Part shown: piece by piece, positions 59,964 to 64,000 of the stretch | How the letters are laid out: each line of letters begins with the position of its first letter | Numbering within the stretch: position 1 is the stretch's first letter | Assembly (NCBI GenBank): GCA_965207045.1 | Contig: OZ242261.1 | Location: 1,268,109-1,332,108 of the forward strand | DNA from: Anaplasmataceae bacterium | Lineage (GTDB): Bacteria; Pseudomonadota; Alphaproteobacteria; Rickettsiales; Anaplasmataceae | Direction of reading: 5' to 3' | Length of the DNA stretch: 64,000 nucleotides | The notes under the pieces: generated by a model | Databases searched by the model: none | What the model saw: only the letters and a program-made list of their open reading frames with translations | What the model was told of the DNA's origin: nothing | Made by a program: the position numbers and the translations under genes

Positions 59964-60036
59964 ATGATGAAGAGTTTTGTCACAATATTGACATTAATCA
60001 TTTCATCATGCTTCTCAGCAGCTTATGGAAGTCATG
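59964..60036 (+). CDS. galaxin-like gene, exon 1 (signal peptide)
   Basis: ATGATGAAG... encodes MMKSFVTILTLIISSCFSAAYGSH, then donor GTAAAG in phase 1. This is a hydrophobic signal-peptide-like sequence. Confidence 0.6.
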
Positions 60037-61165
60037 GTAAAGCTTTAAAGTCTGTAATGTTGAATATCATATAACTAGCTAGCTATAACTAAACATGTGC
60101 ATTAATGTATGTGTTTGTGTGTGTGTGTGTGTGCATGTGTATGCGCGCACATGTGTATGCTTGCATGTGTTTGTATATACGTGTGCCCCACACAGATATA
60201 TAGCTATAAGCTTCATGCTGTGCAGTGATACACAAGTTTGTCTGACCTAACAACAATGTGAACAAATTATACCTAGTTGGATTTGCTAAGTTGGAAGGCA
60301 TACGTACGTATATTATAAGAGCAGTCAATTTTCATTATGTGTGTTAAACTGGTCCATTTAGCTGGCAAATATCACAAAAGGAGACTGCAATCATTGCTAC
60401 AAAGCTATCTACTAATTTAATTTGTTAGGTCAAATTAGCACCTTTCCACAATGTGTAGCTAGCTATTAGCTACACCAATTAGCCAATTAGTTAGCTATGC
60501 CTAGTTACTTTGACTCCATATTTATGGCACAAATCTAGAATCATTATCTCCATTGTACGTACATACGTAGCTATAGGTTAATTTAATGTATTCCCCTCCG
60601 TGCATTATCTCCCAGCGCATCCATGAGTAATTATAGCTAGAGAATTAACTGCCAGAGAGATAAAGTTAGTTGATAACTATAGTATATCAAACACATGTTA
60701 ATCAGCTTATTCGGTCATTGACAAATTATACAGCTATTCAAGCTTTGATTGGTCTGTTTATGCATGTGGAAGATAAACAAGTAGCTATACTATGTACCCC
60801 ACATTCACTCATATGGTATATATCCTGTTATTATACTGCATGTGTATAGATATAGAGTGACTAGTGTAAAGGATACCATACTAAAATAGCTACGTATTTA
60901 CCACTAATTTTGTTAACTCAGTCATGCAATATAGCTAAGTAGTGGAAACAAAATTAACTTTTGACTATTAAACCTCTTGGCTCCTCATAATATGATTTGC
61001 TCAAGTATAGCTATAAAAATTAATCGTCTGTAGGTATATTGACTCACTTAACCTAACTAAGCATATAATTAGTGCACAGCTGTGTAATTATGTATTATGT
61101 ACTATGTAACTATCTATGTATTGTAATTATACAAGTATGTATGTATGTACGTACGTACGTAGGTA

Positions 61166-61307
61166 TATGTATGTATGTATGTATGTATGTATGTATGTAT
61201 GTATGTATGTATGTATGTATGTATGTATGTATGTATGTATGTATGTATGTATGTATGTATGTATGTATGTATGTATGTATGTATGTATGTATGTATGTAT
61301 GTATGTA
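61166..61307. repeat. (TGTA)n microsatellite, about 140 bp, inside the intron of the galaxin-like gene
   Basis: Direct reading. This explains the CMYV/HTYI artefactual ORFs 61072-61402. Confidence 0.9.
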
Positions 61308-61459
61308 TATACCATGTAGCTATGCACATATACATGCGAATATACGTACGTATGCATTATGTATATGTAGCTACATACATACCTAAAACATACTGTATGT
61401 AATAATTACATATTATACAGAGCTATGTATAGTTTATGTAGATATTATTTATAATGTAG

Positions 61460-64000
61460 AATGCAATGGATTATCCTATAATTCAAATACTCATATATGT
61501 TGTGGTGAAAAATTGAGTCCACATGGAAACTATACAGGATGTTGCAAGGACGACCCTTACAATGGCTATACCCATCTATGTTGCAATTATAAACTGGTGG
61601 CACGAGGTCGCAGTACAACATGTTGTGGACCTTTACCTTACAATCAGTATAGTCATCTCTGCTGCAGTCGTAGAGTTGTACCACGAAGAACTAGGACATC
61701 ATGTTGTAGAGGTGTTCCTTACAATCATTACACACATCTTTGTTGCAGCGGTAGATTAGTCCCTCAAGGCAGAGGAACAGCATGTTGTGGAGGTGCCTCT
61801 ATCAATCATCACACTCATATATGTTGCGAAAATAAGGTGTTTCCACGAGAGAGCAATACATCATGTTGTGGAGCTGTTCCTTATAGCCAGAGTACTCATA
61901 TATGTTGTAATGAAAGGGTCATTTTACGAGGTAGCAGAACGTCATGTTGCCATGATGAGCTTTATGATTCACACACCCATTTATGTTGCAATAGTAAGTT
62001 GATGCCAAGAAGCAGCAGCACTTCTTGTTGTGATGACACTCCTTACAACAAATACACGCATGCATGCTGTAGTAAAACAGTGAGTATACGAGGTAACAGT
62101 TCTCACTGCTGTGACAAAACACCCTACAATCAGTTTTCTCACATGTGTTGCAAGCAAGAATATAGAGTATTCATACGAGGCAATAATACAGATTGTTGTG
62201 ATGGTAAACCTTACAACTCACATACTGACATTTGCTGTGATGGTAGTACAACCGCACGTAATAACAGTACGTCTTGTTGTGGCACCATCCCATACAATGA
62301 GAATACTCATATCTGCTGTGATAGAAAAATAAGCCCAATAAATGATACCCTATTTTGTTGTGGCAGCACATTATATAACCTGAATACTCACATGTGTTGC
62401 AATGGCAACATATATTCGCATAACAGTACTATAACCTGTTGTGGTAATGTCTTGTACAACTTCAACACTCATATTTGCTGCAATGAAAGAGTTAGCTCAC
62501 GAAATGCTAGCACATCTTGCTGTGGTAGCACATTATATAATAGGAACAGTCAGATATGCTGCAATGGAAGAATCAGTGAACAAAATGGTAACATGTCCTG
62601 CTGCTATAGTATATCATACAATGTATATACACATATATGCTGTGGTGGTAAAGTGAGTGTAAGAGGTCAGAGTTCATCATGCTGTGGTAATAAACCTTAC
62701 AATTCTTACAATCACTTGTGTTGTCAAGGAAATTTGATATTACGTGGTAACAACACACATTGTTGTGGTACTACACCATACAGTTCTTTTACTCATGTAT
62801 GTTGTCGAGGATCTATAGCTCCACTAAACATGGGCACATCTTGCTGTGGCAGCAAGCCTTATCATTGGTATAGTCACATATGTTGTAATGGAGTATTGAG
62901 TTTACGAGGAACTGCTACATCTTGTTGTGGTTCTACCCCTTACAATCCATACACCCATTTATGCTGTGGTGGAGAAAACATTCGACGATTTCGAAGCAAT
63001 AGTATATCCTGTTGCAGTGGGACTCTTTACAACTCCCAAACCCACATATGCTGTAGTAACAAATTGATGCCGAAGGGTTACAGCACATCTTGTTGTGGTA
63101 TTGTTCCCTACAATTCATATACACACATGTGTTGTGGTGGAAACGTTGCTTTACAAAGTGGTAGTTCATCATGTTGTGGATCCATAGCTTATGATTTACA
63201 GACTCACATATGTTGTTTAAGCCAACTGACAGCACGTGGTGACAGCACCTCATGTTGTGGTGGTATTCCTTACAATAATAACACTGAAATATGTTGCAAA
63301 GAATCAGTGAACTTAAGGGACAGTTATAATACATCATGCTGTAGTTATCATCCTTACAATTTATACACTCACATGTGTTGTAATGAAACTATTGCTCTGC
63401 AAGGTATCAACACTGCTTGCTGTGGTAACACAGTTTATAATTCACAGACTCATATATGCTGTAGTGGTAGATTACTTCAACGAGAGAGTAGCAGTACATC
63501 TTGCTGTGGTTATGATGCCTACAATTCACAAACTCACATATGTTGTGGAGGACAGTTGAGTGCAAGAGATGACAGTTCATTATGCTGTGGTGTTACCCTC
63601 TATAATTCATACACCCACACATGTTGCAGTGGAACCATTGCCCCTCGAGTTAGCCATGCAGCTTGCTGTGGTAACCAATCTTACAATTCATTGACTCACA
63701 TATGCTGTAATGGTAGATTATTTTTACGAGGTTATAGGACATCATGTTGTTATTATAATGCCTACAACTTTAAAAGTCATATATGCTGTGGAGGAAAGCT
63801 GAGTGAACGGAACCACAACCGGGTACGTTGTTGTGGAAGACTAAATCTTTATAACATTAATACCCAGATATGTTGTAGTAGCAGAAGTTCTTCACAACGT
63901 ATACTTAGAGGTTTATCTTGTTGTGGTAACGTACAGTACAAGAAACGTACTCATATATGTTGTGATGGGATATTAATGGTACGAGGCACCAGTACATCGT
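61460..64000 (+). CDS. galaxin-like di-cysteine tandem-repeat protein, exon 2 (open to the right edge of the window)
   Basis: The acceptor ttataatgtAG at 61458-59 restores the phase from exon 1. The frame (codons starting at 61459+3n) has no stop for about 2.5 kb. It encodes at least 30 units of 27-29 aa of the form T-H-x-C-C-x(9-11)-S/T-C-C-G-x(2)-P-Y-N-x(2), the CC-repeat architecture of coral galaxins. Track ORFs here are out-of-frame or antisense artefacts. Confidence 0.75.

What the first reader, a model, noticed from the sequence alone, without database searches (positions are those of the whole stretch)
59964..64000. Very large galaxin-like gene: signal-peptide exon plus a single >2.5-kb exon with at least 30 di-cysteine repeats
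**Seen in the sequence**
- Exon 1 encodes MMKSFVTILTLIISSCFSAAYGSH.
- A 1423-nt intron contains (GT)n and a 140-bp (TGTA)n.
- Exon 2 is open from 61460 to the window end. It encodes at least 30 consecutive 27-29-aa units such as THICCNERVILRGSRTSCCHDELYDSH, each with two CC pairs, a PYN/LYN core and frequent N-x-S/T sequons.
- The units are diverged at DNA level, so the array is old rather than recently expanded.

**Established knowledge**
- The CC-x-CC tandem architecture defines galaxins, which are coral skeletal-matrix proteins. Galaxin-like proteins occur in other invertebrates, including symbiosis-associated tissues.
- Described galaxins that I know of are far shorter (roughly 10-20 units).

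**Inference**
- This is an unusually long secreted, glycosylated matrix or mucus-type protein.
- It also supports a marine-invertebrate origin for the host DNA.
Basis: partly seen in the sequence, partly recalled or inferred. Interest (0 to 1): 0.65.

Follow-up and report, generated by a model that had tools for sequence, protein, structure and literature searches.

The report
Very long sponge galaxin-like gene
This is an intact gene for a secreted protein made of at least 61 tiny, cysteine-stapled beta-hairpins in a row: an unusually long and regular member of the known galaxin-like family, probably from a sponge genome, and otherwise ordinary.

Summary
A 73-nt signal-peptide-like exon (59964-60036) is followed by a 1423-nt phase-1 intron carrying (TG)n and (TATG)n. 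A reading frame then stays open from 61460 to the window end. It holds 61 CC pairs at alternating 14/13-residue spacing: 30 full units of 27-29 aa plus a partial 31st.

Pfam Galaxin_repeat (PF24748) matches at E=2e-181. AlphaFold2 (pLDDT 97) gives one beta-hairpin per CC, the architecture already published for galaxins and calcarins.

The gene is a member of the galaxin-like repeat family, not a coral galaxin in the strict sense. It is basic (pI 8.5, net +34) and about three times longer. Its best named relatives are only 26-30% identical echinoderm, hemichordate and sea-anemone proteins.

Databases already hold galaxin-like proteins of 1000-1520 aa, so length alone is not unprecedented. The unbroken 61-hairpin ladder is the longest among the 197 relatives compared.

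Three related copies in other assemblies are pseudogenes. They show that the array runs about 105-160 aa further and then stops. dN/dS of 0.22-0.35 indicates constraint.

The host looks like a demosponge. Function is inferred: an extracellular cationic rod, microbe- or matrix-binding. Interest is modest.

The parts
59964..60036 (+). Predicted exon 1 (coding part): start codon plus a 24-residue signal-peptide-like sequence, MMKSFVTILTLIISSCFSAAYGSH, plus the first base of the next codon.
   Evidence: The sequence shows an n-region with Lys, a 14-residue hydrophobic core and an A-Y-G small-residue c-region. The donor is G|GTAAAG. It is the only classic signal-peptide-like ATG...GT phase-1 candidate in 57.9-61.4 kb. 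It is not verified by RNA and is not conserved in L082, L083 or L084.
60037..61459 (+). Predicted phase-1 intron of 1423 nt, running from GTAAAG to TGTAG.
   Evidence: The intron has stops in all frames. It contains (TG)n at 60106-60133 and (TATG)n at 61089-61308. The 3' boundary is supported by homology to paralogues starting at 61462, and by an AG at the same position in L082 and L083, the two copies whose DNA was checked.
61089..61308 (.). (TATG)n microsatellite inside the intron.
   Evidence: TRF reports period 4, 55.8 copies and 87% matches.
61460..64000 (+). Exon 2 (cut off by the window end): 847 codons encoding 61 di-cysteine half-units, i.e. 30 full galaxin-like units of 27-29 aa plus a partial 31st.
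   Evidence: The frame is open to the window end with P(chance)=8e-27. Pfam PF24748 matches at E=2.2e-181. AlphaFold2 of units 13-18 gives pLDDT 97.2 with one beta-hairpin per CC. dN/dS is 0.35 against L082 and 0.22 against L083, and 122 of 123 Cys are conserved.

Best explanation
**What it is (shown)**
- This is an apparently intact nuclear gene of a eukaryote, most likely a demosponge.
- It encodes a galaxin-like repeat protein of roughly 950-1030 residues.
- The model has two exons. A short first exon supplies the start codon and a secretion signal. One large second exon supplies an uninterrupted array of at least 61, and probably 69-73, di-cysteine half-units.

**How it is built (predicted with high confidence; matches published predictions for the family)**
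- Every 13-14-residue half-unit folds into a four-residue/four-residue beta-hairpin whose first strand ends in the CC pair.
- Neighbouring hairpins are chained by disulfides between adjacent CC pairs.
- The result is one long, covalently stapled, non-globular ladder.
- The loop between the hairpins of a unit carries most of the N-x-S/T sites.

**What it does (inferred)**
- The mature protein is strongly cationic: net +34, pI 8.5, with one conserved His, Tyr and Asn per unit.
- I therefore take it to act outside the cell as a stiff, protease-resistant, multivalent rod that binds anionic surfaces.
- My preferred specific role (about 0.4) is microbe-facing: coating or restraining bacteria in the sponge tissue, as shown for the cationic squid galaxins.
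- A purely structural matrix role (about 0.3) is nearly as likely.
- It is not a coral-type skeletal galaxin.
For: **Family membership**
- Pfam PF24748 scores 594 bits against a cut-off of 28.
- 68 homologues at E<=1e-10 carry PF24748. There are 990 relatives at E<=1e-3 among 1.84 billion representatives.

**Intactness and constraint**
- 871 codons are open (P=8e-27).
- dN/dS is 0.35 over 847 codons against L082 and 0.22 against L083. 122 of 123 and 45 of 46 Cys are retained.

**Gene model**
- The exon-2 boundary coincides with the start of homology in three other copies.
- An AG sits at the same position in L082 and L083, the two copies checked.
- All three copies end in a conserved ...CC(S/N)G(R/K)(I/V)..C-stop, about 105-160 aa after the point where the window ends.
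- The signal-peptide candidate is nearly unique upstream: the only other hydrophobic one is atypical. Homologues also begin with signal peptides.

**Fold**
- AlphaFold2 gives pLDDT 97.2 and pTM 0.76, with 24 strands forming 12 hairpins in 6 units.
- This is the same hairpin and disulfide-chain architecture described for galaxins and calcarins in PMC12419799.

**Charge**
- The mature part has K21, R49, D20, E16 and a pI of 8.52.
- Squid EsGal proteins are cationic (+5 to +21.5), specific to symbiotic organs, and yield antimicrobial peptides (PMC12773714).

**Host**
- A kinase on contig L081 has Dysidea avara as its best named hits, at 55-61% identity. L081 comes from the same assembly as L082, the paralogue that is 82-88% identical to the window gene.
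Against: - No transcript, protein or expression data exist for this gene.
- Exon 1 and the signal peptide rest on sequence features only. No SignalP was available, and exon 1 is not found upstream of the three related copies.
- All three related copies recovered are pseudogenes. The family is therefore decaying in places, and the unseen 3' end of this copy could be damaged.
- A basic pI does not exclude a mineral-matrix role: Amgalaxin-like 1 has pI 9.09 (PMC2726143).
- The sponge assignment is indirect. It comes through a related assembly, not through the window itself.
Confidence: 0.8

Rival explanations
1. It is a biomineralisation matrix protein. Like coral galaxin, Sycon calcarins or mollusc cysrichin, it would be secreted by skeleton-forming cells and occluded in a calcium-carbonate skeleton, where it frames or modulates crystal growth.
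For: - It has the same repeat family and the same predicted hairpin ladder.
- Galaxin and the calcarins are found in skeletal matrices (PMC2726143, PMC12419799).
- At least one coral galaxin-like protein is basic, with pI 9.09.
- The keratose sclerosponge Vaceletia has galaxin-like transcripts.
Against: - The protein has pI 8.5 and net charge +34, against pI about 4.5 for true galaxins. No acidic domain is present.
- No scleractinian protein appears among the 68 hits at E<=1e-10.
- The nearest named relative of the host is a non-calcifying demosponge.
- The Vaceletia galaxin-like proteins are not in its skeletal proteome.
Confidence: 0.1
2. It is a transcriptionally silent or decaying gene copy. 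The long open frame would be a recently dead member of a family that is being lost.
For: - The three other copies recovered (L082, L083, L084) all carry frameshifts and nonsense codons. L082 also has a 1.27-kb insertion.
- None of them has a recognisable exon 1.
- No expression data exist.
Against: - 847 repeat codons lack a single stop or frameshift, while relatives at dS 0.36 have accumulated several.
- dN/dS is 0.22-0.35 and the Cys residues are almost fully conserved.
- A plausible start codon, signal peptide and splice sites are present.
Confidence: 0.08
3. The array is one domain of a much larger multidomain extracellular protein. The model would be the roughly 5000-aa usherin-like proteins of hexactinellid and homoscleromorph sponges, with further exons outside the window.
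For: - In other sponge classes the only galaxin-like regions sit inside about 5000-aa proteins with FN3 and laminin-EGF domains.
- Some homologues combine PF24748 with VWA, EGF or peptidase domains (P0023, P0040, P0066).
- The 3' end of this gene is not in the window.
Against: - Pfam finds nothing but Galaxin_repeat in the 871 residues.
- A signal-peptide exon lies directly upstream.
- All three related copies terminate with a conserved stop codon after 4-6 more units, with unrelated sequence downstream.
Confidence: 0.04

Closest known systems
Long uncharacterised galaxin-like repeat proteins of echinoderms, hemichordates and Nematostella. Examples: Apostichopus japonicus 1045 aa, Amphiura filiformis 1520 aa, Saccoglossus LOC102809577, Nematostella LOC5520808.
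   Same: - These are the best sequence matches (E 1e-66 to 2e-96) and consist only of PF24748 repeats.
- They have a signal peptide, 800-1500 aa and 41-79 CC pairs.
   Different: - They are only 26-30% identical to the window protein.
- Their arrays are irregular. 40-55% of spacings are 13 or 14, and many CC pairs are reduced to a single C. Their longest uninterrupted ladders have 8-19 CC, against 61 here.
- Several carry a non-repeat C-terminal domain.
- None has a known function.
Galaxin of scleractinian corals (Galaxea fascicularis galaxin, Acropora Amgalaxin).
   Same: - It has a signal peptide followed almost entirely by tandem units of about 30 aa, each with two CC motifs.
- It is secreted and Ser-rich.
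- AlphaFold predicts hairpins chained by a continuous disulfide backbone (PMC2726143, PMC12419799).
   Different: - The coral proteins are 338-aa precursors with about 10 units, acidic (pI about 4.5), with a dibasic processing site, and are found in the aragonite skeleton.
- The window protein has at least 871 aa and at least 30 units, pI 8.5, and no dibasic site near the N-terminus. Its host is probably not a calcifier.
Squid galaxins EsGal1-10 (Euprymna scolopes).
   Same: They are cationic, secreted galaxin-family proteins from a host that manages bacterial partners. Repeat-derived peptides inhibit bacteria (PMC12773714). The window protein has a net charge of +34.
   Different: - The squid proteins have at most 7 repeats and a predicted extra alpha-helical part.
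- The window protein has 30 or more units, and no helix appears in the six units modelled.
- There is no expression or activity data for the window protein.
Calcarins Cal1-17 of the calcareous sponge Sycon ciliatum.
   Same: They are sponge proteins that are secreted, with CC pairs every 10-15 aa and the same predicted hairpin ladder.
   Different: - Calcarins have 10-23 di-Cys, no clear repeat unit and 1-2 breaks in the ladder, and they are linked to calcite spicules.
- The window protein has a strict 27-aa unit and an unbroken ladder of at least 61.
- Its relatives at >50% identity are only unnamed contigs of related assemblies.

Membership tests
Galaxin-like repeat family (Pfam PF24748 / PANTHER PTHR34490) | Match to the family HMM above the curated threshold. 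| tested here: met
   The score is 594.2 bits against a cut-off of 28, E=2.2e-181, with 8 stretches covering the array.
Galaxin-like repeat family (Pfam PF24748 / PANTHER PTHR34490) | Evenly spaced di-cysteine (CC) motifs every ~10-15 residues. | tested here: met
   There are 61 CC pairs, and all 60 spacings fall between 13 and 16. 54 of the 60 (90%) are 13 or 14.
Galaxin-like repeat family (Pfam PF24748 / PANTHER PTHR34490) | Each CC lies in the first strand of a short beta-hairpin, with the hairpins in series. | tested here: met
   AlphaFold2 of units 13-18 gives pLDDT 97.2, with strands at 2-5/8-11, 16-19/22-25 and so on, i.e. 12 hairpins for 12 CC. This matches the description in PMC12419799.
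Galaxin-like repeat family (Pfam PF24748 / PANTHER PTHR34490) | Inter-hairpin disulfide chain (Cys1 of one CC bonded to Cys2 of the preceding CC). | not testable with these tools
No solved structure of the family exists, by sequence or by fold.
Galaxin-like repeat family (Pfam PF24748 / PANTHER PTHR34490) | N-terminal signal peptide (secreted protein). | tested here: inconclusive
   Exon 1 has the n/h/c architecture with an A-Y-G cleavage motif and is nearly the only such candidate upstream. However, no predictor was run, there is no RNA evidence, and the exon is not conserved in the other copies.
Galaxin sensu stricto (scleractinian skeletal organic-matrix protein) | Precursor of ~340 aa with ~10 units. 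| tested here: not met
   At least 871 aa and at least 30 units lie within the window. Reference values come from PMC2726143.
Galaxin sensu stricto (scleractinian skeletal organic-matrix protein) | Acidic mature protein (pI ~4.5). | tested here: not met
   The pI is 8.52 and the net charge is +34.
Galaxin sensu stricto (scleractinian skeletal organic-matrix protein) | Dibasic propeptide-processing site shortly after the signal peptide. | tested here: not met
   The first dibasic pair (RR) is at mature residue 73, and there are only 5 dibasic pairs in 849 residues.
Galaxin sensu stricto (scleractinian skeletal organic-matrix protein) | Presence in a CaCO3 skeleton, or expression in calcifying epithelium. 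| not testable with these tools
   No proteomic or expression data are available for this host.
Squid-type cationic, symbiosis-associated galaxins (EsGal) | Net positive charge at neutral pH. | tested here: met
   The net charge is +34. EsGal proteins range from +5 to +21.5 (PMC12773714).
Squid-type cationic, symbiosis-associated galaxins (EsGal) | Expression restricted to microbe-housing tissue, and antibacterial activity. | not testable with these tools
   This needs expression data and peptide or protein assays.
Usherin-like giant sponge proteins with an embedded galaxin-like region | FN3 and laminin-EGF domains flanking a region of ~200 aa with di-Cys motifs. | tested here: not met
   Only PF24748 was found in the 871 aa. 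The related copies end with a stop codon after the array.

The most novel reading that the evidence does not exclude
**The ladder**
- This may be the longest continuous disulfide-stapled beta-hairpin ladder yet seen: at least 61 hairpins in the window and probably about 70 in the full protein.

**The lineage**
- It is encoded in a demosponge lineage. The demosponge genomes examined so far (Ephydatia, Tethya) were reported to lack galaxin-like genes.
- It belongs to a fast birth-and-death family: one intact copy against at least three pseudogenes across related genomes.

**The proposed role**
- The product would be a cationic, microbe-binding rod used by the sponge to manage its bacteria.

**A suggestive neighbour**
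- The gene lies about 33 kb from a stretch of at least 26 kb of intact Rickettsiales-like DNA joined without a gap to host sequence. That stretch would be a very recent transfer of symbiont DNA to the host nucleus if it is not an assembly chimera.
Probability: 0.15. Interest if true: 0.55.

Novelty: new member of a known kind. Interest (0 to 1): 0.3.

Why it matters
- **Range of the family.** The gene adds a clean, extreme example to a family whose biochemical role is still unknown. With one strict 27-aa unit repeated at least 30 times and no break in the CC ladder, it would be a convenient natural template for testing what the galaxin hairpin ladder does. Candidate properties are stiffness, multivalent binding and resistance to proteases.
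- **Taxonomic point.** If the host is a demosponge, galaxin-like proteins are not restricted to calcifying sponges. This supports the published view that the mineral-matrix galaxins were recruited from secreted di-cysteine proteins with other jobs.
- **Limits.** The gene is a recognisable member of a curated Pfam family. Comparably long relatives are already in public databases, so it does not open a new question by itself.

Tried and rejected
**1. Extending the exon directly.**
- The window's own contig (1,377,224 bp) is masked.
- Look-ups of the window-encoded proteins P0073 and P0069 returned nothing.
- The 3' end was therefore inferred from related copies L082, L083 and L084.

**2. Looking for exon 1 or intron homology upstream of the related copies.**
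- blastn and tblastn found nothing.
- Exon 1 thus has no comparative support.

**3. Structural relatives.**
- Foldseek against the PDB gave nothing better than E=0.15 and TM 0.22. The weak hits were reovirus sigma1 and adenovirus fibre beta-spirals and the TNFR-type 4-1BB.
- A profile search of PDB sequences gave zero hits.
- I rejected any claim of a fibre-shaft or TNFR relationship.

**4. Enrichment of glycosylation sequons.** Rejected: 15 observed against 15.8 +/- 3.3 expected.

**5. Recent tandem expansion.** Rejected: there is no DNA-level tandem repeat, no higher-order periodicity, and units are 57% identical in nucleotides.

**6. Identifying the assemblies from the literature.** ERZ25069580, ERZ25067984 and ERZ21861969 gave no papers.

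**7. The neighbouring three-copy gene family.**
- It has no Pfam match.
- Only 14 unnamed relatives were found.
- The AlphaFold2 model is mediocre, with pLDDT 68.
- Foldseek was uninformative.

**8. A caveat on the word-indexed search.** The homologue search missed the close fragments P0088, P0093 and P0137, which the exhaustive search found. Absence of an intact orthologue elsewhere therefore cannot be claimed.
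Full report
**Observation**

- ATGATG at 59964 opens a 24-codon peptide, MMKSFVTILTLIISSCFSAAYGSH. 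It has one Lys near the N-terminus, a 14-residue hydrophobic core and a small-residue A-Y-G end.
- The peptide is followed by G|GTAAAG at 60037.
- The next 1423 nt have stops in every frame. They contain (TG)n at 60106-60133 and a 220-bp (TATG)n at 61089-61308.
- After ...tttataatgtag (AG at 61458-61459) the frame is open to the last base of the window.
- The donor leaves one base (G) and the acceptor supplies AA. The junction therefore reads GAA (Glu) and the intron is phase 1.
- 871 stop-free codons at this base composition have a chance probability of 8e-27.

**The array**

- The exon-2 translation has 61 CC pairs with spacings of 14,13,14,13... Of the 60 spacings, 54 (90%) are 13 or 14 and the rest are 15 or 16.
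- That gives 30 complete units (24 of 27 aa, 2 of 28, 4 of 29) and a partial 31st.
- The unit consensus is T-H-[ILM]-C-C-x-G-x-[LVI]-x-x-R-G-x-x-T-S-C-C-G-x-x-P-Y-N-x-x.
- Units are old. Mean pairwise identity is 57% in nucleotides and 44% in amino acids, with no dependence on distance. TRF sees no DNA-level tandem repeat in the exon.
- Cys makes up 14.5% of residues.
- There are 15 N-x-S/T sequons, which is what shuffling predicts (15.8 +/- 3.3). However, 12 of the 15 lie in the same loop just before the second CC of a unit.

**What it is**

- Pfam PF24748 (Galaxin_repeat) matches at 594 bits against a cut-off of 28, E=2.2e-181, and no other domain is found.
- The 68 homologues at E<=1e-10 all carry PF24748. 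The best are 26-30% identical proteins, 800-1520 aa long, from sea cucumbers, brittle stars, sea urchins, Saccoglossus and Nematostella. Fish, molluscs, Ciona, Lingula and even a green alga follow.
- An exhaustive HMMER scan of 1.84 billion representatives finds 990 relatives at E<=1e-3.
- The family assignment is therefore secure.
- Strict galaxin membership fails. Coral galaxins are 338-aa, acidic (pI about 4.5) precursors of about 10 units with a dibasic processing site (PMC2726143). This protein has pI 8.5, net charge +34 and at least 30 units, and its first dibasic pair is at residue 73.

**Length in context**

- 'Longer than any described galaxin' holds for the literature: 10-23 di-Cys in galaxins and calcarins (PMC12419799) and at most 7 repeats in squid (PMC12773714).
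- It does not hold for sequence databases. Amphiura filiformis P0002 has 1520 aa and 79 CC pairs, and six further relatives compared have 51-56 CC pairs.
- What does stand out is regularity. Among the 197 best relatives, the longest unbroken run of CC pairs at 10-17-residue spacing is 61 here, against 22 for the next best.
- That comparison covers only the top hits and is not exhaustive.

**Fold**

- I built an alignment of units 13-18 with four other six-unit blocks of the same protein and 35 homologue segments (A1).
- AlphaFold2 on this alignment gave pLDDT 97.2 and pTM 0.76.
- Every half-unit is a beta-hairpin of two four-residue strands. The CC closes the first strand and a two-residue turn follows. 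That makes 12 hairpins in 162 residues.
- This is the architecture already published for galaxins and calcarins. There, Cys1 of a CC bonds Cys2 of the preceding CC to form a continuous disulfide backbone (PMC12419799).
- I could not inspect the disulfide geometry, because the coordinates are not exposed.
- No solved structure resembles the model, by fold (best E=0.15, TM<=0.22) or by sequence.

**Related copies, gene ends and selection**

The exhaustive search revealed short, highly similar fragments: P0088 at 85%, P0093 at 65% and P0137 at 53% identity. Their contigs come from three ENA long-read metagenome-type assemblies.

| Locus | Assembly and contig | Similarity to the window gene | Lesions |
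|---|---|---|---|
| L082 | ERZ25069580, ctg35280_8x_l | 82-88% nt identity to 61615-64000 | nonsense codons, a frameshift, a 1.27-kb insertion |
| L083 | ERZ25067984, ctg16651_50x_l | about 72% nt identity | several frameshifts and stops |
| L084 | ERZ21861969, ctg15366l | best protein-level match 70% (tblastn; nt identity not measured) | several frameshifts and stops |

These copies are useful in three ways.
1. **Exon-2 start.** Similarity to the window begins at 61462, the first Cys codon. An AG sits two bases upstream in L082 and L083, the two copies whose DNA was checked, while the sequence upstream is unrelated. This supports the exon-2 acceptor.
2. **Gene end.** All three copies continue about 105-160 aa (L082: 160 aa with 12 more CC) beyond the point where the window ends. 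They stop at a conserved ...DPSTQxCCxGxxC-stop. The window gene should therefore encode about 950-1030 aa with about 69-73 hairpins, and exon 2 should contain the stop codon.
3. **Selection.**
   - dN/dS is 0.35 against L082 (847 codons) and 0.22 against L083 (313 codons).
   - 122 of 123 and 45 of 46 Cys are retained.
   - This shows protein-level constraint over most of the divergence.
   - The window copy has no lesion in 847 codons, while a relative at dS 0.36 has several.

Exon 1 is not detectable upstream of any of the other copies. It rests on its own features only. In 57.9-61.4 kb it is the one ATG...GT(A/G)A phase-1 candidate with a classic N-terminal hydrophobic core. One other candidate, at 59421, has its hydrophobic stretch at the C-terminal end.

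**Host**

- The window's own proteins are flagged as coming from a 1.38-Mb contig.
- A kinase on L081 has the demosponge Dysidea avara as its nearest named relatives, at 55-61% identity. L081 is from the same assembly as L082 and carries a 74% identical homologue of the window's neighbouring gene family. Above the Dysidea hits lie hundreds of unnamed paralogues.
- L082 also shares an interspersed repeat with the window at 88% identity.
- A demosponge host is thus likely but indirect.
- The galaxin-like family itself is not diagnostic of marine invertebrates.

**Mechanism**

Shown:
- family membership;
- an intact open frame under constraint;
- a regular array.

Predicted with high confidence:
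- a hairpin ladder.

Inferred:
- secretion, from the signal-peptide-like exon and the signal peptides on homologues;
- an inter-hairpin disulfide chain, by analogy with the published models;
- N-glycans on the inter-hairpin loop.

From these I take the product to be a stiff, covalently stapled, cationic extracellular rod that presents about 30 copies of the same His/Arg/Tyr/Asn surface. That makes it a multivalent binder of anionic surfaces.

| Candidate role | My probability | Main reasons |
|---|---|---|
| Microbe-facing | about 0.4 | The charge resembles the antibacterial, symbiotic-organ-specific squid EsGal proteins. The host is a bacteria-rich sponge. The family shows birth-and-death turnover. 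|
| Structural matrix | about 0.3 | Fits a stiff, covalently stapled extracellular rod equally well; nothing tested here separates it from the microbe-facing role. |
| Carbonate-skeleton matrix | about 0.1 | The basic charge, the missing acidic domain and the likely host argue against it. |
| Silent relic | about 0.08 | The three other copies are pseudogenes, but this copy is intact and under constraint. |
| Fragment of a giant multidomain protein | about 0.04 | Only PF24748 is found, and the related copies end in a conserved stop. |

**Verdict**

The gene is a new, extreme but recognisable member of a curated family. It is worth a note for its unbroken ladder of at least 61 hairpins and its probable demosponge origin. 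It is not a new kind of system.

The most curious thing in the window lies outside the finding. The first ~26.8 kb are intact Rickettsiales-like bacterial DNA joined without a gap to the eukaryotic sequence.

Noticed in passing
window 1-26800 (junction about 26800-27000): The first ~26.8 kb are bacterial-type DNA at 28-34% GC with back-to-back intact ORFs. They encode a ProP-like MFS transporter, TadA, PgeF, SecF, YihA, NuoF, ArgD, an ~800-aa ValRS (best NCBIfam model PRK13208), RecR and GatB, plus a tRNA at 23326-23396. GatB is only 55-60% identical to any GTDB species representative returned, all of them Alphaproteobacteria. I read this as an unsampled Rickettsiales-like symbiont; the order-level label is partly from memory of rickettsial gene content. 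There is no N gap before the intron- and microsatellite-bearing eukaryotic sequence that follows. The join is either a chimeric assembly or a very recent insertion of symbiont DNA into the host genome.
   Followed up: partly
window 35115-37052, 44202-46914, 53635-57839 (minus strand): Three tandem paralogues of an unknown gene family lie here, each with at least two exons. The N-terminal exon is about 200 aa (MGIEIHRLVWQ...) and a downstream exon carries ...KVRSVQINRPWIDLSAL.... The family has no Pfam match. Only 14 relatives were found, all unnamed, in ENA assemblies (51-74% identical). AlphaFold2 gives a mostly helical model at pLDDT 68, and Foldseek is uninformative.
   Followed up: partly
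window 6841-9774 (-), 17875-19071 (+), 24983-26317 (+): Inside the bacterial block there are large ORFs of 978, 399 and 445 aa with no Pfam match. The 978-aa ORF, the only one of the three scanned against NCBIfam, has no match there either. They may be symbiont-specific surface or effector proteins.
   Followed up: partly
window 47877-49232 (minus strand): This is a reverse-transcriptase fragment split over two frames (RVT_1, E=2e-32 and 3e-3). It is a decayed non-LTR retroelement lying between the second and third paralogue.
   Followed up: partly
L082 1-6738; L083 7563-11100; L084 about 1050-4000: Related assemblies carry pseudogenised copies of the galaxin-like gene, with nonsense codons and frameshifts. 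In L082 a 1.27-kb insertion is 68% identical to window 56080-57093, so it is an interspersed repeat. None of the copies has a recognisable signal-peptide exon, and similarity to the window stops exactly at the exon-2 boundary.
   Followed up: yes
window 38600-38935 and 55428-55542: Further compound microsatellites of the (TATG/TACA)n type occur here. They resemble the one in the galaxin-like intron and cross-match low-complexity DNA in L082.
   Followed up: no
protein P0094 (250 aa, unnamed, from the representative library): This galaxin-like fragment has six identical tandem copies of CCGNKPYNSDTHV. It shows that recent unit amplification does occur elsewhere in the family, unlike in the window gene.
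   Followed up: no
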